In this document: positions 4,214-21,528 of the stretch, piece after piece
Position numbering within the stretch: the first letter of the stretch is position 1
Layout: each line of letters opens with the position of its first letter
Made by a program: the position numbers and the translations under genes
Notes under the pieces: model-generated
The model's database searches: none
What the model was told of the DNA's origin: nothing
The model's input: only the letters and a program-made list of their open reading frames with translations
Assembly (NCBI GenBank): GCA_964414345.1
Contig: CAYPWF010000005.1
Coordinates: 6,974-70,973, forward strand
Length of the DNA stretch: 64,000 nt
Reading direction: 5' to 3'
Origin: an uncultured Desulfarculaceae bacterium
GTDB taxonomy: Bacteria > Desulfobacterota > Desulfocorpusculales > Desulfocorpusculum

Positions 4214-4232
4214 GGGAACCTCCTTTCTCCTT

Positions 4233-5242: not shown

Positions 5243-5251
5243 CTCGGGGTT

Positions 5252-7262: not shown

Positions 7263-7271
7263 TGTCCCGTC

Positions 7272-7739: not shown

Positions 7740-7841
7740 ACGGTTTCTCTTTTAGTGATTTTTTTATCATCCAATCCGCATTGAATTTATGCCTGTCAGA
7801 CGGACCAAGCAATTTACCTCCCCGGTCCCCCAGGACTGCCT

Positions 7842-8606
7842 TCAAGCCAAGGCAAAGCTCTTGGCCTCTCCGTCATACCTTATAAGACCTTTTCTGGAAA
7901 GGCCTATGAGCTGCTTGGATACTTGAGAGCCGCTAAGCCCCAGTCGCTCGGCTATCTGCCCTGTGGAAAGAGGGGTTCTTGCAAGCAGAAGAGCTATCTC
8001 CTGTTTTTCCAATTCCTCCAGGATGGTCTGGCGAATCAGAGCCTTGCCCTCCTGGCTCCCGAAAAACCTCACATATTCTTGCTCAGACCTTGAAAGCTTG
8101 AGCCTTTCCGCCATGGCAAGCCTTATGTAGGGAACCAGCCTTGCAGCAGCCTCCAGGCCGATTCCAACTCTAGCCTGGTCGGCCCCCTCTCCTGTACCCA
8201 GGGGCCCGAGCTTGGTCAGCTTCTTGGCAAAGTCATTCATTACCTCGGCGAACCTAATCCCTTCGGAAGCGCTCACCCACTCCAATCTGAGCCTCTCAGG
8301 ACTCAGGCCTATGTGTTCCAGGATTGCTTTCCCCACATATACCATGCCCAAGGCGTCATAATTCCCCTCTGTAATGTAATGGCACTCTCCGGGCCAACAT
8401 CCGCCTATGAAGACCCCGTCCGCCCCACCTGTGAAGGCCTTCAGTACGAAAGAGATATCTACCCTGCCGGAGCACATTAAACGCACCAGCCTCACGTAAG
8501 GAGGGTACTGATAACGGGAAACCCCTGCCAAATCCGCCCCTGCGTAACAACACCAGTTGCAGGAAAACCCTATTATCCTGGGCTTGAATTGAAAACCAGC
8601 GCTCAT
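7842..8606 (-). CDS. bamF: BamF-like: MvhD (methyl-viologen-reducing hydrogenase delta)-type domain with a C-terminal winged-helix-like extension
   Basis: Start at MSAGFQFKP with a GGAGG RBS, 4 nt after the bamE stop. MvhD motifs FSCNWCCYAGADLAG, RLMCSGRVD and FIGGCWPGECHY. The C-terminal ~110 aa contains TGQIAERLGLSGSQVSKQLIGLSRKGLIRYDGE, which is wHTH-like. Confidence 0.8.
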   Translation of the reverse strand: MSAGFQFKPRIIGFSCNWCCYAGADLAGVSRYQYPPYVRLVRLMCSGRVDISFVLKAFTGGADGVFIGGCWPGECHYITEGNYDALGMVYVGKAILEHIGLSPERLRLEWVSASEGIRFAEVMNDFAKKLTKLGPLGTGEGADQARVGIGLEAAARLVPYIRLAMAERLKLSRSEQEYVRFFGSQEGKALIRQTILEELEKQEIALLLARTPLSTGQIAERLGLSGSQVSKQLIGLSRKGLIRYDGEAKSFALA

Positions 8607-8610
8607 GATC

Positions 8611-11600
8611 TTAACGTCCTCCGGTTCCCGTGGCCTTTTTTTCCTCTTCCAGGTTTTGCTCCAGATCAAAAAGCAGTCCTTCTATCTGTGCGTACACTTG
8701 CTCGTCCTTGTAATGCTTGAGGAAAATGGCCCCTGTGGGACACTTGGTGTTGCAAAGCCCGTCCCCTTTGCAAAGCACAGGATTCACGCTGGCCTTTCGG
8801 CCCTGGGGGGTGTCGCGGAACTCTATGGCCCCATAAGTACAGCAGGAGATACAGGCCCCACAGCCCACACACCTCTGCTCCTCCACATCACAGACGGATC
8901 CAGAGGCCACTATTCTGTCCTGGGAAAGCAGGGTTAGGACTCGGCCGGCAGCGCCATAGGCCTGGGAGACAGCCTCTGGAATATGCTTTGGATAGTGGGC
9001 AATGCCGCAAAGATAAACCCCGTCAGCTCCGAAATCCACAGGCCTGAGCTTTACATGAGCCTCCTGGAAAAATCCGTCCGGGTTTAGGTTCACCTTGAAC
9101 AACTGGGCCAACTCCCTGGTTTTGGCCGAGGGGATAACTGCCGCCGCCAAGGCCACTAGATCAACACTTAGTTCCAGTTTCTTGCCCAGCACATAGTCCG
9201 GACAGCTCACTTTAAGGACACTTCTGCCTTCCTCTGTGGCCGCCTCAACCTCGGGCATACTCTGGGGTTCATACCTTATGAATCTAACACCTTTTTCGGC
9301 CGCTTCTCTGTAAGAGTCCTCCCTGAAGCCATAGGTCCTCATGTCCCTGAAAAGAACGTAGACGTCCAAAGCGGGGTTCAGCTCCTTGAGCAGAAGGGCG
9401 TTTTTCACCGAATGGCTACAGCATATTCTGGAGCAGTAATTCCTCTCCTGATTCCTGCAGCCCACACACTGGATCATGGCAATGCTTTGGGCTCCCAGAA
9501 TCCTTTCATCCTTCTTGGCTATGAGCTCTTCCAGCTCTATGTTGGTAAGCACCCTGGGATCTTGCCCGTAGAGATATTCGGTGGGCTTGTACTCCTCTGC
9601 TCCTGTGGCTATCACAGCCGCCCCATGCCGGATCTCCTGCATTCTCCCCTGCGACCTGACACTCGTTGTGAAATTGCCCACATAGCCCTTGCAGCCCAGG
9701 ATGGAGGCCCCAAGGAGCACGTGTATCAGGGGATGCCGGTTGACCTTTTCAATGAGATGTCCCAAATAGTTCTGGACGTCTATTCCCTCCAGGGTGTAAT
9801 GGAGCCTTCGCGCTATCCCTCCCAGCTCATCCTCCTTCTCCAGCAGGTACACTTCATGGCCCTGCTCCGCTATGCTGAGGGCGCAGGTCATACCCGCAAT
9901 CCCACCTCCCACAACCAGGGCCCTCTTGTCCACAGGAAGGTAGAATTCTTCCAGAGGCTCCAGCATCGTGCTTCTGGCCACAGACATTCTGACTATGTCC
10001 TTGGCCTTCTCTGTGGCCTCCTCTTTCTCCCTGGAGTGGACCCAGGAACAATGCTCCCTGATGTTAGCCATGTCAAAGAAATACTGGTTGATGCCGGCCA
10101 TGCGCAGGGTGTCCCTAAACAAGGGCTCGTGTGTCCTTGGAGTGCATGCAGCCACTATCACTCTGTTGAGGCCCTTCTCCTGTATGGTGTCCGCTATGGC
10201 CTTGGCAGAATCGCTGGAGCAGGAGAAAAGCTGCTCCTGGGCATGGGCCACATGGGGTAGGCTTAGGGCGTAATCCACCACAGAGGGGACATCCACCACA
10301 CGTCCTATATTGGCCCCACAGTGGCAAACAAAAACTCCCACTCTGGGTTCCTCTTGGGATACATCTCTCTCAGCAGGGTAAACCCGCTCAGTGGCCAGCT
10401 TTCCTCGCCTTCGCCTCAAGAGCTCCCCGCATTTTGAGCCGGCTCCGCTTGCACTCACAACGCTCTCTGGTATGTCCACTGGCCCCTGGAAGGCGCCGCT
10501 TACATAGATGCCGGGACGGGTTGTCTCTATGGGATTGCCTGGGTTTGTTTTGCAGAAACCGTGCTCATTCAGCTCTATGCCGAATATCTTAGCCAGATCC
10601 TCTGCCCCCGCGGGCGGCCTCAGGCCCACGGACAAGACCACCATGTCAAACTCCTCTTCCTTGACCCCCTCCTCGAAGGTGGAATACCTTATTCTTACCC
10701 CTTTGGTCTCAGGGTTCTCCCCAACCACCGAGACGTAGCTTCTCACAAACCTGATACCCGGCAAGCGCTCTGTTCTTTGGTAAAACCTCTCGAAATCCTT
10801 CCCGTAGGATCGGATGTCGTTGTGGAATATGGTGCATTGGGCCTCGGCGTCATGATCCTTGGTAAGGATCACCTGTTTTTGGGTGTATGTGCAGCAGACC
10901 GCCGAACAGTAGCTGTTCCCCCCCGGCAAAACGGTCCTGGAGCCCACGCAATGGATCCAAGCCAGCTTCCTGGGATGTTTTAGATCCGAAGCCCTTCTTA
11001 TCTCCCCCTCATAGGGACCAGTGGAGCAAAGTATCCTCTCGTACTCCAGGCTGGTGACCACATTGTGGAAACGGCCGTAACCGTACCGCTCCAACATCTG
11101 CCGGTCCACTATTTTGTAGCCTGGAGACAGTATGACAGCCCCCACCTTCACTTCCACCCTCTCTGGTTTCTGGGTGAAATCTATGGCCTTGTTCTTACAT
11201 ACGGTCTGGCAGATCCTACATTTCTTTTCCTTGAGATAAAGGCAGTTCTCGTCGATGTATGTGACCAGGGGGATGGCCTGTGAAAAGTATATGTGGATGG
11301 CCTTGTTCTTGGATATGTCCTGGTTGAAGGGATCGGGGACTTTCACAGGGCAATATTCCACGCAGGTTGTACAGCCGGTGCACACATCCTCCAACACATA
11401 CCTGGGCTTTTTCACCAGGGTCACTCTAAAGTCCCCGGGTTCTCCCTCAAGCCTCTCCACCTCCGTATAGGTCATGATCTCTATGTTCTGGTGCCTGCTG
11501 CATTCGATGAACTTGGGAGACTCTATGCACATGGAGCAATCATTGGTGGGAAAGGTCTTGTCCAGAAGAGCCATGTGTCCGCCTATGGCCGGAGACTCCT

Positions 11601-11745
11601 CTACAAGAAAGACCTTGAAGCCTGCTGTGCCCAAATCCAGGCAAGCTTGGATGCCGCTTATCCCGGCCCCCACCACCATCACATCTGCACAATTGGCGGT
11701 GGAAAGTTTCTCCAGCAACTTCATCATCTCAGAACGGATTTCCAT
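8611..11745 (-). CDS. bamE: BamE-like: tandem double-FAD HdrA-like flavoprotein with multiple 4Fe-4S clusters (1044 aa)
   Basis: Two dinucleotide-binding motifs (VVGAGISGIQACLDLGTAGFKVFLVEE and VVGGGIAGMTCALSIAEQGHEVYLLEKE), the HdrA-type CSMCIESPKF, and a C-terminal ferredoxin CVGCGACISCC...CKGDGLCNTKCP. The size matches the ~110-kDa BamE. Confidence 0.85.
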   Translation of the reverse strand: MEIRSEMMKLLEKLSTANCADVMVVGAGISGIQACLDLGTAGFKVFLVEESPAIGGHMALLDKTFPTNDCSMCIESPKFIECSRHQNIEIMTYTEVERLEGEPGDFRVTLVKKPRYVLEDVCTGCTTCVEYCPVKVPDPFNQDISKNKAIHIYFSQAIPLVTYIDENCLYLKEKKCRICQTVCKNKAIDFTQKPERVEVKVGAVILSPGYKIVDRQMLERYGYGRFHNVVTSLEYERILCSTGPYEGEIRRASDLKHPRKLAWIHCVGSRTVLPGGNSYCSAVCCTYTQKQVILTKDHDAEAQCTIFHNDIRSYGKDFERFYQRTERLPGIRFVRSYVSVVGENPETKGVRIRYSTFEEGVKEEEFDMVVLSVGLRPPAGAEDLAKIFGIELNEHGFCKTNPGNPIETTRPGIYVSGAFQGPVDIPESVVSASGAGSKCGELLRRRRGKLATERVYPAERDVSQEEPRVGVFVCHCGANIGRVVDVPSVVDYALSLPHVAHAQEQLFSCSSDSAKAIADTIQEKGLNRVIVAACTPRTHEPLFRDTLRMAGINQYFFDMANIREHCSWVHSREKEEATEKAKDIVRMSVARSTMLEPLEEFYLPVDKRALVVGGGIAGMTCALSIAEQGHEVYLLEKEDELGGIARRLHYTLEGIDVQNYLGHLIEKVNRHPLIHVLLGASILGCKGYVGNFTTSVRSQGRMQEIRHGAAVIATGAEEYKPTEYLYGQDPRVLTNIELEELIAKKDERILGAQSIAMIQCVGCRNQERNYCSRICCSHSVKNALLLKELNPALDVYVLFRDMRTYGFREDSYREAAEKGVRFIRYEPQSMPEVEAATEEGRSVLKVSCPDYVLGKKLELSVDLVALAAAVIPSAKTRELAQLFKVNLNPDGFFQEAHVKLRPVDFGADGVYLCGIAHYPKHIPEAVSQAYGAAGRVLTLLSQDRIVASGSVCDVEEQRCVGCGACISCCTYGAIEFRDTPQGRKASVNPVLCKGDGLCNTKCPTGAIFLKHYKDEQVYAQIEGLLFDLEQNLEEEKKATGTGGR

Positions 11746-11968
11746 ATCTCATCCCCTCATGGTTGAAAACCTAGGCCAGAACCATCCAAACCATACCATA
11801 CGCCAAAGTCCCTCATCGGGGGTTAAACCCCAGGCCCTTGTAAGAGCTTCACATTTTCCGACTCAAGCCCAAGCAGAACCGGAAATAAAGCTACCTATGA
11901 GCATGGACCATTTTTCATCTTGCCGTGACCCCCAAGAAGGCCCAAATCAGGCTCCTGAGCAACACAAT

Positions 11969-13129
11969 CTAAACCACCTCAGCCAAAACTTCGCTGATCT
12001 CCTTGATCTCTATCACTTCGCTGTCAGGCCTGTTGAGCCTGCTGTCTTCGAAATTGGTTATGCAGTAAGGGCAGGAGGTGACCAAGACCCTGGCCCCTGT
12101 CTCCACAGCCTGCTGGAGCCTGAGGTCAGAGAACCTCTCGTTCCTGGGGGTTTCCATCCAGATGCGCCCGCCTCCTCCCCCGCAACACAGGCTGCTTTCC
12201 CGCTGGTCGGGCATTTCCAGGAGCTCCAGCCCTGGTATGCTCTTGAGGATCTGACGGGGCTCCTCGAATACGTTGTTGTGCCTGCCCAGGTAGCATGGGT
12301 CATGGTAGGTCACGGATTTAGGGAACTCCCCTTTTACCTCCAGCCTGCCCTCCTTTATAAGCTCCCAGAGGTACTGGGAAATGTGCACCACCTCCAGGTT
12401 CATGCCCAGAGCTGGGTATTCGTTCTTGAAGGTGTGGTAACAATGTGGGGAGGAAACCAGTATTTTTCTTACTCCATGGTCTACGAAACTCTTGATGTTT
12501 TCCCTGGCCAGCCGTTTGAAAAGCTGCTCGTCGCCTGTTTTTCGGATGCTCTCCCCGCAGCAGTTCTCCTTGGGGCCCAAAATCCCGAAGTCCACCCCGG
12601 CCTTGCTGAGGATAGTGGCGGTTGCCTTGGCCACCTTTTTCAGCCTGGCATCGTAGCTTGGGTAGCAGCAAGCAAAATAGAGGATTTCGGTGCCTTCCTC
12701 GTAGCTCTTGACCGGGAGCCCATCTGCCCAGCGGGCCCTGTTGGCCCTTTCCTCGTTTAGGGGATTGCCCTGTCCAACCAGGCTTGCGCTAACCGTACGA
12801 ATGGGTTTCACCGGATTAGGGAATATGCCGTAATCCGTGGCTATCTTGCGAAGCGCCACTCCTGCCTCTATCTGATTAACACCCCTGGGACAGCGCTGGG
12901 GACAGGTCCCACAGGTGGTACAGCGCCAGATCTCCTCCCCCTCTATTTCCGTGAGACCGAAGACCCCTTCGCGGATTATCCTTCGCATGCTGAAACTGGT
13001 GACCCGGTTCCAAGGGCATACGGCATCACAAAGACCGCATTGATAGCAAAGCCTGAAGGATTCCCCCCCGGATTGCTCTACCAGCTCTATGATCTCCTTG
13101 TAAGGCGCCACGGTCTCCACTTCACTCAT
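11969..13129 (-). CDS. bamD: BamD-like: HdrD/GlcF-type Fe-S protein with 2x[4Fe-4S] and two CCG cysteine-rich domains
   Basis: CYQCGLCDAVCP and CTTCGTCPQRCP ferredoxin motifs, followed by CCG-type motifs (CCYPSYDA..., CCGESIRK, CCGGGGG). Confidence 0.8.
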   Translation of the reverse strand: MSEVETVAPYKEIIELVEQSGGESFRLCYQCGLCDAVCPWNRVTSFSMRRIIREGVFGLTEIEGEEIWRCTTCGTCPQRCPRGVNQIEAGVALRKIATDYGIFPNPVKPIRTVSASLVGQGNPLNEERANRARWADGLPVKSYEEGTEILYFACCYPSYDARLKKVAKATATILSKAGVDFGILGPKENCCGESIRKTGDEQLFKRLARENIKSFVDHGVRKILVSSPHCYHTFKNEYPALGMNLEVVHISQYLWELIKEGRLEVKGEFPKSVTYHDPCYLGRHNNVFEEPRQILKSIPGLELLEMPDQRESSLCCGGGGGRIWMETPRNERFSDLRLQQAVETGARVLVTSCPYCITNFEDSRLNRPDSEVIEIKEISEVLAEVV

Positions 13130-13240
13130 CTCCTTCCAAGGCAGGCTTCTCGATCAAGAAGCACAGGGGCTCCAGGCCCAAAGAAGCCTTGGCCCTTGTT
13201 GCGTGCCCCTCCAGGGTTCAAGGTCACTTCCCAGCCACCC

Positions 13241-13789
13241 TCATTCTTTCTTGGAAACTTTCTCACCCGAAACTCTAGCTATGGTCTCTATGACCTTCTC
13301 CATACCATATTTTTCCAAGAGGGCTTCAACACCCATCTCCAGATCCTCGGGCTTGGCATCTTCTTGCCCTTCCTCTTCCCTCTCCTCGTAGGTCAAGGCA
13401 TCCACCAAACACCACTTCACGCACATGGGCTCTTTGAGCTCCGGGTCGTCCTCGCACATGTCGCACTTGAGGGGCAGTCCTGAGTCGGGCTCCTTGAAAA
13501 GATCCCTGGAAGAGCAGGAGGCGTTACAGAAGTTGCATTCCCCGTAGTCCCTTCCGTCTATCACATAAGAATGTCTTCCGGCGCACTCGGCCTCGGCATG
13601 ATACCCGGCCCTGATAGGCAGAAAAACATTGTCCAGTTCGTCCCTAATCACCCTTATCCTGGATCTGGAAGGGTTGTTGCTGGCGTACTTTGGCGAGGAA
13701 TGAAAGGCTGAGCAGGCAACCTCGCAAGCCCTGCAGCCGTTACACTTGTCCACATCAACCTTTATGGATTTTATCTTCTTTTTTTGCAC
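13241..13789 (-). CDS. bamC: BamC-like: small poly-ferredoxin (4Fe-4S) electron-transfer subunit
   Basis: CNGCRACEVAC, CNFCNASC and CDMCEDDP...CVKWC cluster-binding motifs; 182 aa (~20 kDa); directly downstream of the AOR-family gene. Confidence 0.75.
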   Translation of the reverse strand: MQKKKIKSIKVDVDKCNGCRACEVACSAFHSSPKYASNNPSRSRIRVIRDELDNVFLPIRAGYHAEAECAGRHSYVIDGRDYGECNFCNASCSSRDLFKEPDSGLPLKCDMCEDDPELKEPMCVKWCLVDALTYEEREEEGQEDAKPEDLEMGVEALLEKYGMEKVIETIARVSGEKVSKKE

Positions 13790-13925: not shown

Positions 13926-15890
13926 CTACCCCTCCAGAATGCCCCTTTCCACAAAGTCCTGGTAAACATAATCCAAGCCCAGGTTCTGCAAGGTCTCCTT
14001 GGTGGGTATACCCTGGCTGTTCCAGCCCTTGTATCTGTAATATTCCTCCAAGAGCTGGTTCTCATATTCCGGGAATCTCTTTTTCCAGTGATCATCCGGG
14101 GGGCGCTCGTCCTGCCTTCTCATGCCTTTCCTTATGTTTATGGATCTGACCATGTTCCTGACCCTGCTGGCTGCGCTCCAGAGGGAATCCTCGTCCATGT
14201 CCAGACCTGTGGCATAAGAGATTAAGGGCGCCAGGTTGTGGATGTGGTATGGAGGCTTTAGAGGGAAGGAAGAAAGCCCCGCGCAAATCCCTGTGGAATC
14301 ATCTATATAGTGCATTATCTCCTGCCAGTCCACCAGGTCGCAGATCACATCCACTGAGGGATAGAAGGGAAACACCTTGCCCTCCTCACCCCACTCCAGG
14401 ATAAACTCCTTGAATTTCTCCTCTTTCCCGCTGGGCACATGCACCCAATCCCTCACGAACTCCTCCCTCACGTCCTTGGGCAGAGGGGTCTGGGGTATCT
14501 GGCCTTCGATCTGGGTGATATTTATCTTTTCCCCCGTGGACCACATGAGGAAGTAAATGGGATTCAACATGCCCAGTTTGATGGGGATCTGTTCATGCTT
14601 TTTTATGGTGTTGTGGTCAAAGGCTTCGGCCCCTTTTCCTATGCGGCGGGCCGCCCAATAAACCCCGTCGGCCAGCACATCCCCTATACCCTCTCTTCTC
14701 ACGATCCTGTCCAGGAGCCAGTTGAACTTGCCTTCGGTGTCGGAGGGCATGCCTTCTAGGTCCTTGTCGGTCAAAATCCCCGCCTCGTGAAGCTCCAGGG
14801 CAAAGGCCATGACCTGCGGGGTGGAGAACCCGTCGACCCCGTACTCCTGGGCACGGCCCGCTATTCTGAGGCCGAAGTCCAGATCGTCAGCCATGGCTGC
14901 CATCACGTAGGTCAGCTTGGAGAAGCACTTCATGGTGTAAGTGGGATAGCCTGGTATGGAGATGATGCCAGCGCAGCGCACCGGACAGTTGTAACAGCTT
15001 ATGAGCCTCTTTCTGGCCGACTCCAGAGTCTCGGTCCATTTTTTCTCCACGTCCTTGTTCCAGAAGTCCTTCCTCCTGTGCCTGGCATTCCCCCAAGCAA
15101 AGGCTATGGTGTGCCACTCCTCGTCGTGCACGGCCATTTCCTGGGGAGAGCCTATCCTGGCCAGAATCGGAGGTACACCCTTCAAGGGATTGTTAGCCCG
15201 GTGCTGTATGTATTCCAGTATCTGGTTGCATATCTCCATAAACTCGGCGGACTTGGCGATGTTAAGATCCTTGGTGCCCCGCACAGCTATGGCCTTTAGG
15301 TTCTTGTCCCCCATGATGGCCCCAAGGCCCAACCTGCTGGCGCTTCCCCTATGACTCTCTATGGAGGAGAAGAAAACCCTGTTCTCCCCAGCCAGGCCTA
15401 TGGCCATGACCTGGGCTTTGGGCTCCTTGAGCTCCTCCCTGAGCAGCTCTGCGGTCTCGTAGGTGCTCTTCCCCCTGAGGTGACTAGCATCCCTTATCTC
15501 CACCTTGTCGTTGTTTATCCAGATGTACACCAGCTCAGGCGACTTGCCCCTGATGACAACCTTGTCATACCCGGCGTACTTCAGCTCTGGAGCCCAAAAT
15601 CCACCCATCATGGAGTAACCCATGAGCTGGGTCTGGGGTGAAATGGAGGAAATTATGGTCCGGTTGGCTCCAGGGGCCGGGGTGCCACAGAGGAGCCCTG
15701 AGCTGAATATGAGGAGGTTTTCGGGGGAGAAAGGCTCTACCTCCGGAGGTACCCTGTCCCACAACATCTTGGAATTGGTTCCAAGCCCACCCAGGTAAAG
15801 CGGAGTAAGCCTCGGGTCGGTCTCCACCCTCTCTATGCTTCCTCTGGACAGATCAATTTCCAGGTTGAACCCTGTCTCGGCATACCTCAT
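13926..15890 (-). CDS. bamB: BamB-like: aldehyde:ferredoxin oxidoreductase (AOR)-family tungsten/molybdenum-pterin enzyme. Candidate active-site subunit of class II benzoyl-CoA reductase.
   Basis: 654 aa; AOR-family N-terminal domain (MRYAETGFNLEIDLSRGSIERVETDP...LGGLG...) and an AOR-type C-terminal domain; sits at the head of the bamBCDEFGHI-ordered operon. Confidence 0.8.
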   Translation of the reverse strand: MRYAETGFNLEIDLSRGSIERVETDPRLTPLYLGGLGTNSKMLWDRVPPEVEPFSPENLLIFSSGLLCGTPAPGANRTIISSISPQTQLMGYSMMGGFWAPELKYAGYDKVVIRGKSPELVYIWINNDKVEIRDASHLRGKSTYETAELLREELKEPKAQVMAIGLAGENRVFFSSIESHRGSASRLGLGAIMGDKNLKAIAVRGTKDLNIAKSAEFMEICNQILEYIQHRANNPLKGVPPILARIGSPQEMAVHDEEWHTIAFAWGNARHRRKDFWNKDVEKKWTETLESARKRLISCYNCPVRCAGIISIPGYPTYTMKCFSKLTYVMAAMADDLDFGLRIAGRAQEYGVDGFSTPQVMAFALELHEAGILTDKDLEGMPSDTEGKFNWLLDRIVRREGIGDVLADGVYWAARRIGKGAEAFDHNTIKKHEQIPIKLGMLNPIYFLMWSTGEKINITQIEGQIPQTPLPKDVREEFVRDWVHVPSGKEEKFKEFILEWGEEGKVFPFYPSVDVICDLVDWQEIMHYIDDSTGICAGLSSFPLKPPYHIHNLAPLISYATGLDMDEDSLWSAASRVRNMVRSINIRKGMRRQDERPPDDHWKKRFPEYENQLLEEYYRYKGWNSQGIPTKETLQNLGLDYVYQDFVERGILEG

Positions 15891-16031
15891 TTCGTCCCCC
15901 CACTGTCGAGCTTAGCGCTTTTGCTTCTTGGAACCTAGGAGCCCCCCGAAAGCAGCTGTTTCAAGCTGTCTTGCGAACCCCTAGGCAGGGCCTCGAACCG
16001 GAAAGGCCTGAGACCTCATCACTAAATTCAT

Positions 16032-16052
16032 ACTAGTCTCTTTGCGACTAGT
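16032..16052. promoter_or_regulatory. Operator-like site ACTAGTCTCTTTGCGACTAGT (two ACTAGT palindromes, 15-bp centre spacing) upstream of bamB, with an adjacent ACCAGATAG motif at 16058-16068
   Basis: Near-identical to the site upstream of padR at 21506-21528. Located in the 220-bp gap between the activase-gene stop (16110) and the bamB start (15890). Confidence 0.55.
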
Positions 16053-16109
16053 ATCAATCTATCTGGTCCCTGAAAGCTTGTCAACACTTTTTTTGATTCC
16101 GGAGATGGT

Positions 16110-17006
16110 TCAGGAAGAAAGCTGGACCCCATGGGTCTTTTCAAACCTTGGGTTTTTTTCTAAGAGGGACTTGGCAAACACAGCAGCTCCAATGGCCCCG
16201 GCCAGCTGCGTGTCGTATCTGGGTTGAAGGCTCTTGAGTCCCAACTCCCTCTCCACCCGCGCCACAACCCCTGAGTTCTTGGCTATGCCCCCTGTGATGG
16301 CGAACTCCCTCTCTACCCCGATCCGTTCCAGCAGCAGAACCACCCTGCGAGCCATGGCCAAGCAGTAAGCTGCAGCGACCTTTTCCCTGGACCAACCAGA
16401 TCTAAGGAGCCTTGAGGCCTCGCTCTTGGCGAACACCACACAAGTGCTGCTCACAGCAGGAGGCTCCTGTTCCACCTTCAGGGAAAGCTCTCCCATCTCC
16501 TCAAGGGGAAGGCCCATTAATTCAGCCAGGACCTCGATCCCCCGGCCAGTGCCGGCGGCACACTTGTCGTTCATGATAAAAGACAGGACCTTTCCTTCCT
16601 GGTCACAACGGATTGCTTTACAGTCCTGCCCTCCCATGTCCAGAATCGTGCGCACCGAAGAGCCGTAAATGAAATTAGCTCCTTTGGCGTGACAGGCTAT
16701 TTCGGTTACCGTGCGATTCGCAAAGGGTATGTTGACCCTTCCGTATCCGGTCCCAACGATGTAATGAATCTCTCCTAGGGTTAGGCCTGTGTTCTCCAAG
16801 GCCCACTCCATGGCCCTTGTGGCGCTCTTGGCGCTTTGGGAGCCTGTATGGATGTTGGAGTAACAGTAGAGTTGCCCGTCAAGCATTACTACGGCTTGGG
16901 TGCTCACAGAGCCTACATCCACTCCGGCGGTTATTAGCTTGGCTTTTCTCCAGTCCAGATCAGGGGAGTTCCATCTGACCTCAGCCCATGTTGAAAACCC
17001 TGACAT
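16110..17006 (-). CDS. BadF/BadG/BcrA/BcrD-family ATPase (HgdC-type CoA-substrate-specific enzyme activase), copy 2
   Basis: ITAGVDVGSVSTQAVVML ASKHA-fold phosphate-1 motif; NDKCAAGTG cluster-bridging motif; 298 aa. Confidence 0.75.
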   Translation of the reverse strand: MSGFSTWAEVRWNSPDLDWRKAKLITAGVDVGSVSTQAVVMLDGQLYCYSNIHTGSQSAKSATRAMEWALENTGLTLGEIHYIVGTGYGRVNIPFANRTVTEIACHAKGANFIYGSSVRTILDMGGQDCKAIRCDQEGKVLSFIMNDKCAAGTGRGIEVLAELMGLPLEEMGELSLKVEQEPPAVSSTCVVFAKSEASRLLRSGWSREKVAAAYCLAMARRVVLLLERIGVEREFAITGGIAKNSGVVARVERELGLKSLQPRYDTQLAGAIGAAVFAKSLLEKNPRFEKTHGVQLSS

Positions 17007-17094
17007 GCCTCGCTCCTGCCTTATGCCTTGCAGCCTGTCTGAGAACCGGCCTTTCTCCCAAGCCGTAATTGGTCACCTGTGGGGATGGCTTACC

Positions 17095-17865
17095 TCAAAC
17101 CTTCTCAGCCCCGAGGAGCGCTGCCCCCAAGGCACCTACCAGCTCGGGCTGCTCGGGAACCTTCACCTCAACTCCCAAAAGCCTGCTTAGGGCCTGCACC
17201 ACCCCAATATTTCTTCCCACACCCCCCACCAGCAGCACCTCGGGTTCCACCCCGACCCGCCTCACCATGGAGGCTATCCGCTCGGCAATGGCGTCATGCA
17301 CGGCCCGAGCCATGTCGGGTTTGGGGGTGTTGGCGTGCACCAGAGAAATAACCTCGCTTTCTGCGAAAACAGTACACTGGGCATTGATGCAAACCTGCTT
17401 TGTGGCCTCCAAGGCCAAAGGGCCCATCTCTTCCAGCTTCACCTCCAGGGCCCTGGCCATGGTTTCCAAAAAAACTCCGGCTCCAGCAGCACATCTGTCG
17501 TTTATGACAAAATCAACCAGCCTCCCACGGCTGTCGGTCCTAAGAGCCCTGGCCTCCTCTGCCCCCACATCTATGACCGTTCTGGCATTGGGGGAAAAAT
17601 ACACGGCTCCTCTGGCATCCGCGCTCACCTCGGTTACGGTGTCGTGGTGAAAGCCCACCTGTTGCTTGCCGCATCCAGTGGCCACAACCCTTTGCACCTT
17701 TTCCTTTGGGACTCCGGCTACATCCAGGGCTTCCCCATAAGCCTTTTCCACTGCAGCAGCTGTATCCCCTCCGGCCACAACCAGACTCCAGCCAAGTATC
17801 CCAGACTCTCCCAGAATCACAACCTTCACAGTTTTGGCTCCGCAGTCCACCCCTGCTGTTATCAT
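17095..17865 (-). CDS. BadF/BadG/BcrA/BcrD-family ATPase (HgdC-type activase), copy 1
   Basis: Start at MITAGVDCGAKTVKVVILGESG; NDRCAAGAG motif; 257 aa. Confidence 0.75.
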   Translation of the reverse strand: MITAGVDCGAKTVKVVILGESGILGWSLVVAGGDTAAAVEKAYGEALDVAGVPKEKVQRVVATGCGKQQVGFHHDTVTEVSADARGAVYFSPNARTVIDVGAEEARALRTDSRGRLVDFVINDRCAAGAGVFLETMARALEVKLEEMGPLALEATKQVCINAQCTVFAESEVISLVHANTPKPDMARAVHDAIAERIASMVRRVGVEPEVLLVGGVGRNIGVVQALSRLLGVEVKVPEQPELVGALGAALLGAEKV

Positions 17866-18130
17866 CCCAGCGCTCCTGAATCCAAGCCTAACCCCCCCAA
17901 GCCCCATCCGCAAAGAAAGAGAAAAACCCGGTCATCCCAAAAAGAAATTATCACCGGCCCAGGTTCCTGCACAAGCTAAGAGGTCACATTTTTTCACCTA
18001 CAGATAATCAGGCTCCATTCTCCTGGGGAGGCACGGCCCCCATTTCAGGGGGCTTGAGCGACCTGTATCTTTTTTTCCGAAAAGAAAACCTGTCAAGGGA
18101 ATCGGCCGGGCCTAAGAACACAGGTACCCA

Positions 18131-18622
18131 CTAGTCCAGATCCACCTGAGTCTTGCACTTGTTGCACCTCATGGCCCCACGGAAAAGCTTCTGGCCGCAT
18201 TGGGGGCAAAGGTACCTGGCTTCCTCATCCTGGACCCACTTCTCGGTTCCTACTTCCCGCCAATAAGGAATGGCCCTCAAGATCACCCTCTTGCCCACGC
18301 TCATGGGGAAATTCTCTATGTGCGTGCAGGGGAACTCATCACATTGGTGGCAGCCCTGGTAACCTTTCTTCTGGGTGCAGGACCTGATCTCACACTTTTT
18401 GCAGTATATGAACTGATCCTGGGAAAGGCACCCCTGGCATCTGATCTCATCTGGGGTTAGCCTCTCGCTGTTGGGGAGGGTGCCCTTTCCAGGGGAGTTA
18501 CCCTTGTAAAGCTCAACCAGTTTCTCTTTGAGCTTCTGGTTATTGTCCCTATGTGCAATGTAGATGGCACAGACCCCACAGTAGAGCCCGCACGGAGCCA
18601 GAAAATTCGGGTTCACTTCCAT
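18131..18622 (-). CDS. DUF3795-like cysteine-rich protein (putative metal/Fe-S-binding)
   Basis: Start at MEVNPNFLAPCGLYCGVCAIY. CxxC pairs: CGLYCGVC, CQGC, CKKCEIRSC, CHQCDEFPC, CPQC and CNKC. Confidence 0.55.
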   Translation of the reverse strand: MEVNPNFLAPCGLYCGVCAIYIAHRDNNQKLKEKLVELYKGNSPGKGTLPNSERLTPDEIRCQGCLSQDQFIYCKKCEIRSCTQKKGYQGCHQCDEFPCTHIENFPMSVGKRVILRAIPYWREVGTEKWVQDEEARYLCPQCGQKLFRGAMRCNKCKTQVDLD

Positions 18623-18743: not shown

Positions 18744-19514
18744 TCAGCTCTCTTTCCAGACAGGCTCCCGCTTATCCAAAAAAGCCTGGAGCCCTTCGCG
18801 GGCATCCTGGGTACTCATGAGCTCCTTGAGATAGATCTCCTCGATACGGCCGAGTCCCTTTTCCCCCTGGGTGTCCCAGCCCTCTACCATTGCCTTTCGG
18901 GCCAGTCTGAGCACGACCCCGCTTAGCTTCCCGAAGCGGGAAACCCAAGCCTGGGCCTCTGCCTGGAGTTGATCCTGTGGGACTACCTTGTTCACAAGCC
19001 CTATCTGAAGGGCCTCCTGGGCTGTGACCGTCTCCCCTGATAAAACAAGCTCCATGGCCTTTTTCCTGCCGATGATCCTGGGGAAGGCCAGCGCAGCTAT
19101 GGGGGGGAAGACACCGACTTGGATCTCTGGCTGGCCGAAACGCGCCTTGTCGCTGGCCAGCACCATGTCGCAATAAGTGGCCAGCTCGCATCCTCCACCC
19201 AGGGCCGCCCCTTGCACCACGGCCAGGCTGGGCACCCCCAGGGAGTCCAGACGGCGAAAGATCCCGTGGAAGACACGAATCATGTGCTCGGCCTTGTCCC
19301 CCAGATGGTCCGCCACTTCCACACCCACAGAGAAGGCCTTCCCCTCGGCTTGGAAAACCAGCAGATTGGGGGGAGAACTCACGAGGCTATCCAAGGCTCG
19401 GATTATCTCCTCCATCATCTGGATGTTCATCCAGTTAAGAGGGGGCCTCTTCAAGGTAATCCAGGCCGCCTTTTCCTTAAGCTCCACTCCGATGAACTCG
19501 AACCCCTCCTTCAC
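18744..19514 (-). CDS. Enoyl-CoA hydratase/isomerase (crotonase) family. Candidate cyclohexa-1,5-diene-1-carbonyl-CoA hydratase (Dch/BamR-like).
   Basis: 256 aa crotonase fold with an AALGGGCELA oxyanion-hole motif; located between the oah candidate and bamB. Confidence 0.6.
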   Translation of the reverse strand: MKEGFEFIGVELKEKAAWITLKRPPLNWMNIQMMEEIIRALDSLVSSPPNLLVFQAEGKAFSVGVEVADHLGDKAEHMIRVFHGIFRRLDSLGVPSLAVVQGAALGGGCELATYCDMVLASDKARFGQPEIQVGVFPPIAALAFPRIIGRKKAMELVLSGETVTAQEALQIGLVNKVVPQDQLQAEAQAWVSRFGKLSGVVLRLARKAMVEGWDTQGEKGLGRIEEIYLKELMSTQDAREGLQAFLDKREPVWKES

Positions 19515-19597: not shown

Positions 19598-20728
19598 CTA
19601 GGCCTGCGGCTTGCCCAGAACCGCCTCTTTTAGTTCCTCGTCAAAGGGATGGGCTTGGGCCAGAAGCTGCCTGTACTTGATGAAGTCTATCAGGTCCTTG
19701 CCTGTGATCTTCTTGGTGTTGAAGGCGTGAAAGCCTAGGAAAGCCTCTGTCATCATGTTCACAGAGAGCCAGTGGCGGTTGGCCAGCTTGGTCATGTCCC
19801 AGAAGAACTTTTTCTTCATGCGGATACCGTCTATGGACTTGATAAGACAGCCTGGGAAAAGATTGGTGAAGGTCCATAGAATCTCTCCCACACACTGGTC
19901 CAGGAGGGCTAGATCCTTCTTGGCCTCCTTGACGTAAGCCCTGGCCTTGGCCAGCTCCTCCCCTTTCTTGAACTCCCCGTAGACGATCTCCCCATCCTCC
20001 ACGTACTTGTCTGTTATGACCTGGGGGTTGCGTACCCACTTGTCCCCGTCCTTGATGACCGGAACCACCTTTGAGATGAGCCCCAGTCGCTTCATCTTAT
20101 AAGCACTCCACATCTCGCAGGAGACGCAGTTCCACATGGCATCCTCCATGCTGAGGAACCATGGGAGGAAATCCGTGGAGCCCCCATCCGGCGCAGAGCC
20201 GTGGCGGGGACCGGCCTGCCCGAAAATTGCTAGGTCAGAGGCCACAGTCAGATCACAGGCCATTCCTATCTCCTGTCCGCCTGCCACCCGCATGCCGTTT
20301 ACCCTGCAAATGACGGGTTTCTTGCAATTCAAAATGGCATCCACCATGCCGTTGAACAAATCCATGTACAGGCCGTATTCCTGGGGATTGCCCCCGTAGT
20401 ACTCTGCATACTCCTTGGTGTTGCCCCCGGTGCAGAAGGCATCTGTTCCCACAGCAGTAAAAACAACGGCCACCACGCTTCTGTCCATGGAAGCCTTGTG
20501 AAACCCGGAGATGACCCCCTTTACCATCTCAGTGGTGTAGGAGTTGTATTGCCTCGGGTTGTTCAATATGACCCAGGCCGAATAAAGCCCCTCCACGGGC
20601 CGGCCTTTGGGGTCCAAAATGGGCCTTTTCTCGTAAATGGTGCAGGGGGCTTCTTTCCCAAAATGCTCATCCCCCCAAAGGTCGTGGTCTTTCATGCCTT
20701 TCTCTTTGGGCAGCCAATCCAGGGACAT
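19598..20728 (-). CDS. bamA: Crotonase-family ring-cleaving hydrolase. Candidate 6-oxocyclohex-1-ene-1-carbonyl-CoA hydrolase (Oah/BamA-like).
   Basis: 376 aa, unusually long for a crotonase (the Oah size class), with FCTGGNTKEY and MRVAGGQEIGMACD motifs; sits next to dch and the bam operon. Confidence 0.65.
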   Translation of the reverse strand: MSLDWLPKEKGMKDHDLWGDEHFGKEAPCTIYEKRPILDPKGRPVEGLYSAWVILNNPRQYNSYTTEMVKGVISGFHKASMDRSVVAVVFTAVGTDAFCTGGNTKEYAEYYGGNPQEYGLYMDLFNGMVDAILNCKKPVICRVNGMRVAGGQEIGMACDLTVASDLAIFGQAGPRHGSAPDGGSTDFLPWFLSMEDAMWNCVSCEMWSAYKMKRLGLISKVVPVIKDGDKWVRNPQVITDKYVEDGEIVYGEFKKGEELAKARAYVKEAKKDLALLDQCVGEILWTFTNLFPGCLIKSIDGIRMKKKFFWDMTKLANRHWLSVNMMTEAFLGFHAFNTKKITGKDLIDFIKYRQLLAQAHPFDEELKEAVLGKPQA

Positions 20729-20838: not shown

Positions 20839-21444
20839 TCACCCCCTCTCGGCTATCTTTCTTTGTCCCCCGAAGGCCTTCTCCCCGCCTTCCAAAAAAG
20901 CCACCTGGGACCACTCCTGACAACGCTCCACCCTATCCAACATGACGTTGAGATGGTGCAGCTCGCTTCTGAATCTATCATGATCCTTTTCCAGCACCAG
21001 GAAGCGGTTAACAGGGGTCTTCCCCCTGTACTCCTCCATCCTCTTCCTTAGGCTTCGAATGGTCTTTTCCAGCAGCACCTTTTTCTGCTTGAGGCAATCC
21101 AGAGCTTTTTCTTTATCCAAGGCGAAAATAAAAAAATATCCCAGATTGGAAAGGTCATAGGTGATGTTCTTGTCCAGGAGGGACTTCTCAACAAGCCTGG
21201 CCAGACGTTCCCGGCCCTTGGAGGTAAGGCTGTAAACACGCCTCTCTGGCATGAGCCCTTCCCTCTCCCTGCGGGAACTCACCATCCCTTGATCTTCAAG
21301 GGACCCCAGGGTCTTGTAAATCATGGGAGGGCTTATCTTGGCCCAGGAGTCCATGCGGTGGACCTTGACCAGCTGGTTGATCTGGTAGCCGTGCATGGGC
21401 TCATCCAGGAGAAAACCCATTACCACCAGCTCATACTTGGACAT
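20839..21444 (-). CDS. PadR-family transcriptional regulator with a C-terminal coiled-coil extension
   Basis: MSKYELVVMGFLLDEPMHGYQINQLVKV...YKTLGSLEDQGMV...RRVYSLTSKGRERL is a canonical PadR wHTH. Confidence 0.8.
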   Translation of the reverse strand: MSKYELVVMGFLLDEPMHGYQINQLVKVHRMDSWAKISPPMIYKTLGSLEDQGMVSSRREREGLMPERRVYSLTSKGRERLARLVEKSLLDKNITYDLSNLGYFFIFALDKEKALDCLKQKKVLLEKTIRSLRKRMEEYRGKTPVNRFLVLEKDHDRFRSELHHLNVMLDRVERCQEWSQVAFLEGGEKAFGGQRKIAERG

Positions 21445-21505: not shown

Positions 21506-21528
21506 GACTAGTCTCTTTGAAACTAGTC
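21506..21528. promoter_or_regulatory. Operator-like site GACTAGTCTCTTTGAAACTAGTC about 60 bp upstream of the padR start
   Basis: Same ACTAGT-N9-ACTAGT architecture and TCTCTTTG spacer as 16032-16052. Confidence 0.55.

What the first reader, a model, noticed from the sequence alone, without database searches (positions are those of the whole stretch)
16110..18622. Two tandem HgdC/BcrAD-type activase ATPases plus a DUF3795 Cys-rich protein embedded inside a class II (ATP-independent) BCR locus
BcrA/BcrD-type ATPases are the hallmark of ATP-dependent class I benzoyl-CoA reductases and of 2-hydroxyacyl-CoA dehydratase activators. Here two such genes (NDRCAAGAG and NDKCAAGTG cluster-bridging motifs) sit between dch and bamB without any BcrB/BcrC- or HgdAB-like partner in the window. 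A Cys-rich DUF3795 protein (CxxC x6) lies directly upstream. This suggests an ATP-driven low-potential electron 'archerase' feeding an unknown acceptor. The acceptor could be the Bam complex itself, or a partner encoded elsewhere. It would be an undescribed accessory module for class II BCR.
Basis: inference. Interest (0 to 1): 0.75.

Follow-up and report, generated by a model that had tools for sequence, protein, structure and literature searches.

The report
Class I ATPase pair inside class II operon
Two genes for the ATP-driven "electron booster" of one kind of benzene-ring-reducing enzyme sit, without that enzyme's catalytic genes, inside the operon for the other, supposedly ATP-independent kind, and the arrangement recurs in several sulfate-reducer-like lineages, hinting at an undescribed hybrid or helper system.

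Summary
16110-17006(-) is a BzdQ orthologue and 17095-17865(-) is a BzdP-like partner. [quoted passage not shown] 18131-18622(-) is a 163-aa DUF3795 protein with 15 invariant Cys. They lie between oah-dch and a complete bamBCDEFGHI-had class II set. No bzdN/bzdO or any HGD-D gene, or remnant, occurs anywhere in the 64 kb.

Of the 80 closest loci from species-representative genomes, 60 are canonical bzdNOPQ. Ten are N/O-less, and seven of those have bam genes within 10 kb, in about three gene orders. A close relative (L173) differs from a canonical Desulfarculaceae operon (L009) only by bzdNO→DUF3795 and bzdV→bamBCDEF.

P, Q and DUF3795 are under purifying selection (dN/dS 0.06-0.10). One operator-like palindrome precedes both padR and bamB, which predicts a single regulon.

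My best reading (about 0.4) is an ATP-driven low-potential electron injector or re-activator serving class II BCR. The main rival (about 0.3) is a split class I BCR with bzdNO encoded elsewhere. I could not exclude it, and outside the window's own clade the N/O-less P-Q keep nearly all canonical residues. DUF3795 orthologues also occur in unrelated contexts. I found no paper describing this arrangement.

The parts
21506..21528 (-). Operator-like palindrome (ACTAGT-N9-ACTAGT) just downstream of a TTGACA hexamer, about 60-85 bp upstream of padR
   Evidence: Conserved at the same place in L005, L007, L173, L174, L171 and in the canonical class I operons L009, L087 and L175.
20839..21444 (-). PadR-family regulator, first gene of the unit
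   Evidence: PF03551. It is 79-93% identical to the PadR that heads the related operons.
19598..20728 (-). [quoted passage not shown]
   Evidence: TIGR03200, 582 bits against a cutoff of 464.
18744..19514 (-). dch-like enoyl-CoA hydratase. It is the presumed dienoyl-CoA hydratase but scores below the equivalog cutoff.
   Evidence: PF00378. TIGR03189 scores 158 bits against a cutoff of 292. The position is syntenic with dch in L009 and L173.
18131..18622 (-). DUF3795 protein of 163 aa. It has 11 Cys in the DUF3795 domain plus a C-terminal 4-Cys zinc-ribbon-like motif. It occupies the position that bzdN-bzdO hold in canonical operons.
   Evidence: AF2 model pLDDT 74.8 with no PDB fold match. dN/dS about 0.10.
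17095..17865 (-). BzdP-like ATPase (delta subunit type), 256 aa, with both cluster-ligating Cys
   Evidence: PDB 9gai_C MbdP appeared only in a search made with Q, not with this gene. dN/dS 0.055-0.071.
16110..17006 (-). BzdQ orthologue (alpha subunit type), 298 aa, with both cluster-ligating Cys and the N-terminal extension typical of BzdQ
   Evidence: TIGR03192, 387 against 380. 9gai_D MbdQ, 207 bits.. dN/dS 0.07-0.085.
16031..16084 (-). Promoter-like site TTGACA-17-TAGATT (16084-16056) followed at once by the second copy of the operator-like palindrome (16031-16053), upstream of bamB
   Evidence: Conserved upstream of bamB in L005, L007, L173, L174 and L050.
13926..15890 (-). bamB, tungsten-pterin catalytic subunit of class II BCR
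   Evidence: PF02730 and PF01314. 4z3w_A, 1041 bits, residues 1-653.
3113..13789 (-). bamC (13241-13789), bamD (11969-13129), bamE (8611-11745), bamF (7842-8669), bamG (7272-7739), bamH (5346-7262), bamI (4628-5242), a small conserved ORF (4351-4575) and had (3113-4213)
   Evidence: The small ORF is 77% identical to the one upstream of had in L173.

Best explanation
The two ATPases are orthologues of BzdQ and BzdP. They form the heterodimeric, [4Fe-4S]-bridged, ATP-hydrolysing electron-activating module of Azoarcus-type class I benzoyl-CoA reductase. In this lineage a padR-oah-dch-bzdNOPQ-fd-bzdV-had operon was remodelled. The catalytic genes bzdN-bzdO were replaced by a 163-aa, 15-Cys DUF3795 gene, and the ferredoxin-reducing bzdV was replaced by the class II genes bamB-I. 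bzdP-bzdQ were kept and stayed under purifying selection.

I propose that P-Q still accept an electron from a ferredoxin and use ATP to lower the potential of their bridging cluster. They would then deliver that electron not to BzdNO but into the class II enzyme. The entry point would be the BamC/BamB iron-sulfur chain, reached directly or through the DUF3795 protein. This could be a stoichiometric alternative to flavin-based bifurcation, or an occasional reductive re-activation like HgdC for dehydratases.

**Shown:** identity of the genes, intact motifs, absence of bzdNO in the window, recurrence next to bam genes, selection, and shared operator sequences.

**Inferred:** the heterodimer and its cluster, co-regulation, the direction of the gene exchange, and above all the acceptor.
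For: 1. **Identity.** Q passes TIGR03192. Its best solved relatives are MbdQ and MbdP of a class I BCR. The cluster Cys are conserved.
2. **No bzdNO.** No HGD-D gene or remnant occurs in the 64 kb.
3. **Association with bam.** Of the 80 closest GTDB-species loci, 60 are N/O-linked and 10 are N/O-less. Seven of those 10 have bam genes within 10 kb, against 1 of 60 (Fisher p = 8e-7).
4. **Several gene orders.** These are dch-DUF3795-P-Q-bamB (window, L005, L007, L173/174), bamI-P-Q-fd (L017, L018, L036, L060, L068) and bamF-DUF3795-P-Q-fd (L055).
5. **Cassette exchange.** L173 and the canonical L009 share padR, oah, dch, P, Q, fd, a small ORF and had at 57-89% identity. They differ only by bzdNO versus DUF3795 and bzdV versus bamBCDEF.
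6. **DUF3795 and bzdNO are mutually exclusive upstream of P.** DUF3795 is absent from all 119 N-O-P-Q loci and present in 3 of the 10 GTDB N/O-less loci. It is also present in L005, L171 and L173/174.
7. **Purifying selection.** dN/dS is 0.055-0.071 for P, 0.073-0.085 for Q and about 0.10 for DUF3795, similar to BamD and BamF.
8. **Shared operator.** The same palindrome, ACTAGT-N9-ACTAGT, lies upstream of padR and of bamB. Chance expectation is 0.07. It is conserved in relatives, and the canonical operon has only the padR copy.
9. **No orphan bzdN-O among close relatives.** All loci in the O-tree clade holding the Desulfarculaceae/Deltaproteobacteria-labelled loci that had enough flank are N-O-P-Q (about 10). 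The three orphan bzdN-O loci belong to another clade.
10. **Changed constraint on Q in the window's clade.** dN(Q)/dN(P) is 1.0-1.2, against 0.29-0.72 in 18 canonical pairs. Several residues invariant or nearly so in 57 canonical Q are replaced: W5, R6, R53, P59, R108 and L164.
11. **Transient complex.** Published work states that BzdPQ and BzdNO probably form only a transient complex, and BzdNO was purified alone (PMC11971306). A change of partner is therefore conceivable.
Against: - No direct evidence identifies the acceptor.
- Clade B (bamI-P-Q), L171, L173 and L055 keep essentially all residues conserved in N/O-linked P-Q. Only 0-1 of 132 Q columns and 0 of 61 P columns are changed in clade B, and L173 Q is 84% identical to a canonical Q. 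That is what one expects if they still dock on BzdNO.
- Split bzd clusters exist. In L010, bzdO lies 8 kb upstream of P-Q. In D. gibsoniae the genes are not in one transcription unit.
- Orphan bzdN-O loci exist.
- L091 has bamBCDEF directly next to a complete bzdNOPQ. The two systems therefore simply cluster in catabolic islands.
- L171 has DUF3795-P-Q-fd with neither bam nor bzdNO nearby.
- L022, L030 and L042 have P-Q with no complete bam set; L030 shows only a BamF-like fragment at the locus edge.
- DUF3795 orthologues (71-76% identical) sit in unrelated contexts in Desulfosarcina variabilis and three other lineages.
- The association statistics count related genomes. Independent events number about three.
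- The Geobacter class II complex works without any such module (Butler 2007).
Confidence: 0.4

Rival explanations
1. Split class I benzoyl-CoA reductase. P-Q work with ordinary BzdN-BzdO encoded elsewhere in the genome. The organism then has both a class I and a class II enzyme, and the ATPase genes merely sit in the common benzoyl-CoA catabolic operon.
For: - N/O-less P-Q outside the window's clade keep nearly all canonical residues and the canonical dN(Q)/dN(P) ratio.
- A BzdM-type ferredoxin gene follows Q in L055, L060, L030, L171 and L173, as in class I operons.
- L010 has bzdO 8 kb from P-Q.
- In D. gibsoniae the bzd genes are not in one unit.
- Orphan bzdN-O loci L133, L149 and L155 exist.
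- BzdNO and BzdPQ associate only transiently.
- L091 shows bam and a complete bzd set side by side.
Against: - No bzdN/O lies within 16 kb or 46 kb of the pair.
- The orphan bzdN-O loci form one clade next to L057 (labelled Planctomycetota) and L141, with GC 47%, and not the clade holding the Desulfarculaceae/Deltaproteobacteria-labelled loci.
- All of about 10 close relatives of a Desulfarculaceae BzdO are N-O-P-Q.
- None of the 120 best BzdO homologues lies on a contig whose length matches any N/O-less P-Q contig.
- DUF3795 sits exactly where bzdNO would be.
- In the window's clade, Q has lost residues that are invariant or nearly so in canonical Q and evolves twice as fast relative to P.
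Confidence: 0.3
2. P-Q serve an unrelated acceptor encoded elsewhere, for example a 2-hydroxyacyl-CoA-dehydratase-like or double-cubane-cluster protein, or a reductase for substituted benzoyl-CoA analogues. Their location in the bam operon reflects only shared regulation.
For: - The family (PF01869) activates several different acceptor types. Solved relatives include HadI, HgdC and a 'CoA-substrate-specific enzyme activase'.
- L171, L022, L030 and L042 carry P-Q with no complete bam set nearby; L030 has only a BamF-like fragment at its edge.
- In L022 and L030 an old-yellow-enzyme-type flavoprotein and a phosphotriesterase-family gene follow P-Q.
Against: - Q is an equivalog-level BzdQ.
- The linkage is to benzoyl-CoA pathway genes (oah, dch, had, bam) in most cases.
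- No alternative acceptor gene recurs next to P-Q.
Confidence: 0.12
3. Evolutionary leftover. P-Q are remnants of a class I operon whose catalytic genes were lost when class II genes arrived, and they have little or no present function.
For: - The cassette exchange is inferred from L009 versus L173.
- In the window's clade, Q shows accelerated change and the adjacent ferredoxin gene is missing.
- Q only just passes the BzdQ model.
Against: - The reading frames are intact and all catalytic and cluster motifs are kept.
- dN/dS is 0.055-0.085 at dS of about 1.2-1.4, like BamD and BamF.
- The module persists across lineages that have diverged to 65-73% identity.
Confidence: 0.06

Closest known systems
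BzdPQ, the electron-activating module of Azoarcus/Aromatoleum-type class I benzoyl-CoA reductase (BzdNOPQ)
   Same: Q reaches the NCBIfam equivalog score. P and Q group with BzdP and BzdQ in trees. The gene order P-Q is the same. Both cluster-ligating Cys and the BzdQ N-terminal extension are present. In relatives a BzdM-like ferredoxin gene follows Q.
   Different: No bzdN or bzdO next to them or anywhere in the window. DUF3795 sits in their place and bamB-I follow. In the window's clade several residues invariant or nearly so in canonical Q are replaced, and there is no adjacent ferredoxin gene.
Class II benzoyl-CoA reductase Bam[(BC)2DEFGHI]2 of Geobacter metallireducens
   Same: All eight bam genes are present in the usual order, with oah, dch-like and had. 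BamB matches 4Z3W over its full length.
   Different: The Geobacter enzyme is described as ATP-independent and driven by two flavin-based bifurcation modules. Its genome has no BcrB/C and only one unrelated BcrA-like gene. Here a class I-type ATPase pair and DUF3795 lie in the same predicted regulon.
HgdC and HadI, homodimeric activators of 2-hydroxyacyl-CoA dehydratases, and the reductase of double-cubane cluster proteins
   Same: Same Pfam family and the same helix-cluster-helix Cys pattern (4eht 199 bits, 1hux 165 bits, 7yyl 137 bits). They are the precedent for a catalytic, non-stoichiometric ATP-driven 'activase' role.
   Different: Those are homodimers encoded next to HgdAB, HadBC or DCCP. 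Here there are two different subunits of the BCR type, and no HGD-D or DCCP gene is nearby.
3-methylbenzoyl-CoA reductase MbdONQP (PDB 9GAI)
   Same: It is the best solved relative of Q (207 bits), and its MbdP chain also matches Q (117 bits).
   Different: It is a four-subunit class I enzyme with catalytic MbdO and MbdN, for which there is no counterpart here.

Membership tests
BcrAD_BadFG ATPase family (PF01869; acyl-CoA dehydratase activase domain TIGR00241) | Profile match above the curated cutoff for both proteins | tested here: met
   PF01869 scores 186 bits (Q) and 173 bits (P) against a cutoff of 31.5. TIGR00241 scores 224 and 231 bits against 125.4.
BcrAD_BadFG ATPase family | Two Cys per subunit that ligate the bridging [4Fe-4S] cluster | tested here: met
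   NDKC...SSTC in Q and NDRC...NAQC in P. They align with the Cys conserved in all 57 N/O-linked homologues. Actual cluster binding was not tested.
BzdQ (TIGR03192, equivalog) | Whole-protein score at or above 380.2 bits | tested here: met
   387.0 bits, a narrow pass. Q is 63-73% identical to N/O-linked BzdQ, against 67-100% among those.
BzdP (delta subunit of bzd-type BCR) | Groups with the BzdP encoded directly upstream of BzdQ in bzdNOPQ operons | tested here: met
   In an NJ tree the P clade is sister to P of the canonical L009. P is 44-66% identical to canonical P, against 47-100% among those. No curated equivalog model matched, so this rests on the tree and on synteny.
Class I benzoyl-CoA reductase (complete BzdNOPQ enzyme) | Catalytic subunits BzdN and BzdO (PF06050, HGD-D) encoded with P-Q | tested here: not met
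   No PF06050 hit in any ORF of 180 aa or more. tblastn with four BzdN/O queries gives best E-values of 0.1-2 across the whole window. Presence elsewhere in the genome is not testable here.
Class I benzoyl-CoA reductase | ATP-dependent reduction of benzoyl-CoA | not testable with these tools
   This needs biochemistry.
Class II benzoyl-CoA reductase (BamBCDEFGHI) | BamB of the BCR type plus the BamC-I electron modules in one cluster | tested here: met
   BamB matches 4z3w_A at 1041 bits over its full length. The domains found are:
- BamC: Fer4.
- BamD: CCG plus Fer4.
- BamE: HdrA-like, 1044 aa.
- BamF: FlpD.
- BamG: 2Fe-2S thioredoxin-like.
- BamH: NuoF-like.
- BamI: Fer2_4 plus Fer4.

Class II benzoyl-CoA reductase | P-Q and DUF3795 are subunits or physical partners of the Bam complex | not testable with these tools
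   Only gene linkage and shared operator sequences are available. The purified Geobacter and Desulfosarcina cetonica complexes are described without such subunits.
DUF3795 (PF12675) | Profile match above the cutoff and the conserved Cys pattern | tested here: met
   72.5 bits against 22.6, residues 8-103. The 15 Cys are invariant in 48 homologues. Metal or cluster content is unknown, and there is no solved relative by sequence or by fold.

The most novel reading that the evidence does not exclude
DUF3795-BzdP-BzdQ (with a BzdM-type ferredoxin in relatives) is a self-contained ATP-driven electron 'archerase' cassette. In it the small 15-Cys protein has taken over from BzdNO as the primary acceptor. 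It then passes electrons below about -600 mV to BamBC. The result would be a hybrid benzoyl-CoA reductase that can be driven by ATP as well as by flavin-based electron bifurcation. This would blur the textbook split between class I (ATP) and class II (bifurcation).
Probability: 0.2. Interest if true: 0.85.

Novelty: new variant of a known kind. Interest (0 to 1): 0.62.

Why it matters
Anaerobic ring reduction is taught as a dichotomy. Class I BCR spends ATP, and class II BCR uses electron bifurcation and no ATP.

- **A recurrent exception.** This is a selected arrangement in which the ATP-coupled module of class I, stripped of its catalytic partner, is embedded in and apparently co-regulated with class II genes. 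It suggests that the ATPase module can serve another acceptor, or that class II enzymes in some sulfate-reducer-like lineages have an ATP-driven priming, repair or bypass route.
- **A lead for DUF3795.** The arrangement gives a concrete functional lead for an uncharacterised, very conserved 15-Cys protein.
- **A practical consequence for surveys.** bzdQ is used as a marker for class I BCR in metagenome surveys. PMC10570749 inferred use of both BCR classes in Desulfatiglandales from BzdQ and BamB hits. Among the 80 loci closest to this Q, at least 10 lack bzdNO nearby, so bzdQ alone can overcall class I BCR.

Tried and rejected
**Leads that went nowhere**
- **Hidden partner in the window.** Pfam on all ORFs of 180 aa or more, and tblastn of BzdN/O and BzdM, found nothing.
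- **Divergent N/O-like pairs downstream of P-Q in relatives.** The candidates of 384+461 aa, 333+386 aa and so on proved to be two-component regulators, a phosphotriesterase and an old yellow enzyme.
- **Small ORFs upstream of P in L060, L030 and L042 as cryptic DUF3795.** One is a GNAT protein and the others have no match.
- **The roughly 190-aa ORF after orphan bzdN-O as an alternative electron donor.** It is a Peptidase_M23 protein.
- **bzdO on the same contig as an N/O-less P-Q.** This is weak evidence, because only same-contig cases would show.
- **DUF3795 as a dedicated partner.** Rejected as a general statement, because four sampled orthologues lie in unrelated contexts.
- **Fold of DUF3795.** The model is of moderate confidence, and only the C-terminal zinc ribbon finds weak matches in the PDB.
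- **Sigma-54 promoter search.** Nothing above chance.
- **Generic promoter and terminator scan.** Counts are at chance level. Only the site upstream of bamB, with its operator, is notable.
- **Looking beyond the left edge of the window.** The look-up returned a shorter contig that ends there.
- **Literature.** Eight searches found no description of the arrangement, and no paper for PDB 9GAI. I therefore could not map which Q residues contact the catalytic module.

**Limits of the tools**
- Whole-genome searches of the source bins were not possible.


Full report
**1. What is in the window**

All genes of interest lie on the minus strand. In the direction of transcription the order is:

- padR (20839-21444)
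- oah/bamA (19598-20728)
- a dch-like enoyl-CoA hydratase (18744-19514)
- DUF3795 (18131-18622)
- ATPase P (17095-17865)
- ATPase Q (16110-17006)
- bamB, C, D, E, F, G, H and I (15890 down to 4628)
- a small conserved ORF (4351-4575)
- had (3113-4213)

Q carries NDKCAAGTG and SSTCVVFAKSE, and P carries NDRCAAGAG and NAQCTVFAESE. The DUF3795 protein has six CxxC pairs. BamB matches the G. metallireducens BamB structure 4Z3W over its whole length at 1041 bits. The class II assignment is therefore sound. The window comes from a 668,733-bp JGI metagenome contig. The closest named relative is a MAG labelled Desulfarculaceae, with BamB 96% identical.

**2. What the ATPases are**

They are not generic HgdC-like activators. 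Q passes the NCBIfam equivalog model for BzdQ, narrowly (387 bits against a cutoff of 380.2). Hundreds of proteins about 70% identical to it are named 'bzd-type benzoyl-CoA reductase Q subunit' by their sources. The best solved relatives of Q are MbdQ and MbdP of a class I 3-methylbenzoyl-CoA reductase (9GAI), ahead of HadI and HgdC.

In Desulfotomaculum copahuensis the homologue sits in a canonical cluster: bzdN (HGD-D), bzdO (HGD-D), bzdP, bzdQ, ferredoxin and a bzdV-like gene. The pair in the window is therefore bzdP-bzdQ, the electron-activating half of an Azoarcus-type class I BCR.

**3. The catalytic half is absent**

No ORF of 180 aa or more anywhere in the 64 kb has an HGD-D domain. 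tblastn with BzdN and BzdO from two organisms finds no remnant in any frame; the best E-values are 0.1-2. The window has no BzdM-type ferredoxin gene either. The window extends 16 kb beyond the pair on one side and 46 kb on the other. I could not read the rest of the contig.

**4. The placement recurs**

I fetched the 80 closest loci from species-representative genomes and annotated them by tblastn.

| Category | Loci |
|---|---|
| bzdN/O next to P-Q | 60 |
| Too little upstream sequence to judge | 10 |
| N/O-less P-Q | 10 |
| N/O-less with bam genes within 10 kb | 7 of the 10 |
| N/O-linked with bam genes within 10 kb | 1 of the 60 |

The difference in bam linkage gives Fisher p = 8e-7. These genomes are related, and the independent events number about three. 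All bam-linked cases carry source labels of Desulfarculaceae, Deltaproteobacteria or 'uncultured delta proteobacterium'.

The gene orders differ between groups:

- **Clade A** (window, L005, L007): dch-DUF3795-P-Q-bamB...I.
- **L173/L174**: padR-oah-dch-DUF3795-P-Q-fd-bamBCDEF-had.
- **Clade B** (L017, L018, L036, L060, L068): bamB...I-P-Q-fd.
- **L055**: bamBCD-fdhD-EF-DUF3795-P-Q-fd.
- **L050**: Q-bamBCDE.

L171 has padR-oah-dch-DUF3795-P-Q-fd-had with neither bam nor bzdNO in reach.

**5. A cassette exchange**

L173 (GC 60.6%) and the canonical Desulfarculaceae locus L009 (GC 60%) share the same frame. Amino-acid identities are:

| Gene | Identity (%) |
|---|---|
| padR | 79 |
| oah | 89 |
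| dch | 76 |
| P | 74 |
| Q | 84 |
| fd | 63 |
| small ORF | 57 |
| had | 83 |

The two loci differ in only two places. bzdN-bzdO in L009 corresponds to DUF3795 in L173. bzdV in L009 corresponds to bamBCDEF in L173. The window has the L173 layout, plus bamGHI and minus the ferredoxin gene.

DUF3795 never occurs within 10 kb in 119 N-O-P-Q loci. It sits directly upstream of P in the window, L005, L007, L055, L171 and L173/174.

**6. The genes are maintained**

Between the window and L005 or L007 (dS about 1.2-1.4, so the values are approximate), dN/dS is as follows:

| Gene | dN/dS |
|---|---|
| P | 0.055-0.071 |
| Q | 0.073-0.085 |
| DUF3795 | about 0.10 |
| BamD | about 0.06 |
| BamF | about 0.08 |
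| BamB | 0.02 |

These are not decaying remnants.

**7. Predicted co-regulation**

An operator-like palindrome, ACTAGT-N9-ACTAGT, occurs twice in the window. One copy is at 21506-21528, just downstream of a TTGACA hexamer upstream of padR. The other is at 16031-16053, immediately after a TTGACA-17-TAGATT promoter-like site upstream of bamB. Chance expectation is 0.07.

Both copies are conserved in L005, L007, L173 and L174. The bamB copy is also present in L050. The canonical operons L009, L087 and L175, and L171, have only the padR copy.

This predicts two transcription units, padR-oah-dch-DUF3795-P-Q and bamB...had, under one regulator. The regulator is plausibly the PadR protein. This is inference from sequence only.

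**8. Evidence bearing on the acceptor**

*Against a change of partner.* I took the Q alignment columns that are at least 95% conserved among 57 N/O-linked proteins. Of 132 such columns, clade B changes one and clade A three. Of 61 such P columns, clade B changes none and clade A five. L173 Q is 84% identical to a canonical Q. Split clusters exist: in L010 bzdO lies 8 kb from P-Q, and in D. gibsoniae the genes are not in one unit (PMC4148979). A scan of metagenomes with a Desulfarculaceae BzdO found three orphan bzdN-O loci among 62 assessable. L091 has bamBCDEF directly followed by a complete bzdNOPQ-fd-bzdV. The two systems therefore do co-locate.

*For a change of partner.* The orphan bzdN-O loci form a single clade next to L057 (labelled Planctomycetota) and L141, with GC 47%. 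Each is followed by a Peptidase_M23 gene. All of about ten loci in the O-tree clade holding the Desulfarculaceae/Deltaproteobacteria-labelled loci are N-O-P-Q. Yet in that lineage N/O-less P-Q loci are about as common as canonical ones.

In the window's clade A, Q evolves as fast as P, with dN(Q)/dN(P) of 1.02-1.21. In 18 canonical pairs the ratio is 0.29-0.72, and in clade B and L171/L173 it is 0.30-0.82. Clade A has replaced residues that are invariant or nearly so in the 57 N/O-linked Q. These are W5 and R6 in the BzdQ-specific N-terminal extension, R53, P59, R108 and L164. Clade A has also lost the adjacent ferredoxin gene.

Published work states that BzdPQ and BzdNO probably associate only transiently, and BzdNO was purified alone (PMC11971306).

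**9. DUF3795**

The 163-aa protein belongs to a very uniform family. More than 2,300 homologues were found, and almost all of the 120 best are exactly 163 aa and at least 69% identical. Fifteen Cys are invariant. Eleven lie in the DUF3795 domain (C11, C15, C18, C62, C65, C74, C77, C82, C91, C94 and C99). Four form a C-terminal zinc-ribbon-like motif.

It has no solved relative by sequence. A moderately confident AF2 model (pLDDT 74.8) has no PDB fold match beyond the zinc ribbon.

It is not dedicated to P-Q. Orthologues in Desulfosarcina variabilis str. Montpellier and three other lineages lie in unrelated neighbourhoods. Its repeated position in place of bzdNO makes it a candidate acceptor or adaptor. 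The evidence for that is contextual only.

**10. Interpretation**

Identity is secure: this is a BzdPQ-type ATP-dependent electron-activating module. So are the absence of a local catalytic partner and the recurrent, selected, apparently co-regulated embedding in benzoyl-CoA and class II BCR operons.

My best explanation (about 0.4) is that P-Q inject ATP-energised electrons into the class II system, via BamC/BamB or DUF3795, either as a bypass or as a re-activator. The main rival (about 0.3) is a split class I enzyme with bzdNO elsewhere. An unrelated acceptor (about 0.12) and a functionless leftover (about 0.06) are less likely.

I found no paper that describes the arrangement. The current literature keeps the dichotomy of ATP against bifurcation. 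One survey reads BzdQ hits as class I BCR in Desulfatiglandales.

I rate the finding a new variant of a known kind. It is of solid interest to specialists and testable.

Noticed in passing
window 16031-16053 and 21506-21528: Two copies of an ACTAGT-N9-ACTAGT palindrome, each just after a sigma-70-like promoter, upstream of bamB and of padR. They are conserved in relatives. The canonical class I operon has only the padR copy. This is probably the PadR operator.
   Followed up: yes
window 4351-4575 (-): A small ORF of about 74 aa between bamI and had, with no Pfam match. It is conserved upstream of had in both class I (L009, 57%) and hybrid (L173, 77%) operons.
   Followed up: partly
L133, L149, L155, L157 (metagenome loci): Orphan bzdN-bzdO pairs without bzdP-bzdQ within up to 10 kb. 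Each is followed by a Peptidase_M23 gene of about 190 aa. They form one clade with GC about 47%. It is unknown how these BzdNO receive low-potential electrons.
   Followed up: partly
L091 (Ga0209270_1000228): bamBCDEF is directly followed by a complete bzdN-O-P-Q-fd-bzdV. Class II (without bamGHI) and class I genes lie in one string.
   Followed up: partly
L173/L174, L055, L091: Some bam clusters linked to P-Q lack bamGHI, which a 2026 preprint assigns as the NADH/ferredoxin input module. The window, its two closest relatives (L005, L007) and clade B have it.
   Followed up: no
P subunit, window residue about 108 (motif DVGAEE-A-R): Gly after the DVGAEE motif is invariant in 57 N/O-linked BzdP. 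It is Ala in the window, L005, L007, L171, L018, L022, L036 and L015, which are the N/O-less loci plus one undecided locus.
   Followed up: partly
window 7842-8669 (-): BamF carries a C-terminal winged-helix DNA-binding-like domain (weak HTH_IclR, MarR and ArsR hits) after the FlpD/MvhD domain. A similar FlpD+HTH gene occurs in Desulfosarcina variabilis (L167).
   Followed up: no
window 21695-22477 (-): A 260-aa ORF upstream of padR with no Pfam or NCBIfam match. It is conserved (74-77%) at the same place in L005 and L007.
   Followed up: no
window 53650-57918 (-): A 1422-aa protein with PPDK_N and PEP-utilizer domains only in its last roughly 460 residues. The first roughly 960 residues have no Pfam match. 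It is flanked by two GAPDH-like genes, one atypical at 429 aa.
   Followed up: no
L022 and L030, downstream of P-Q-fd: In the two clade B loci without a complete bam set nearby (L030 has only a BamF-like fragment at its edge), P-Q-fd and a conserved 71-aa ORF are followed by a phosphotriesterase-family gene and a small old-yellow-enzyme-type flavoprotein.
   Followed up: no
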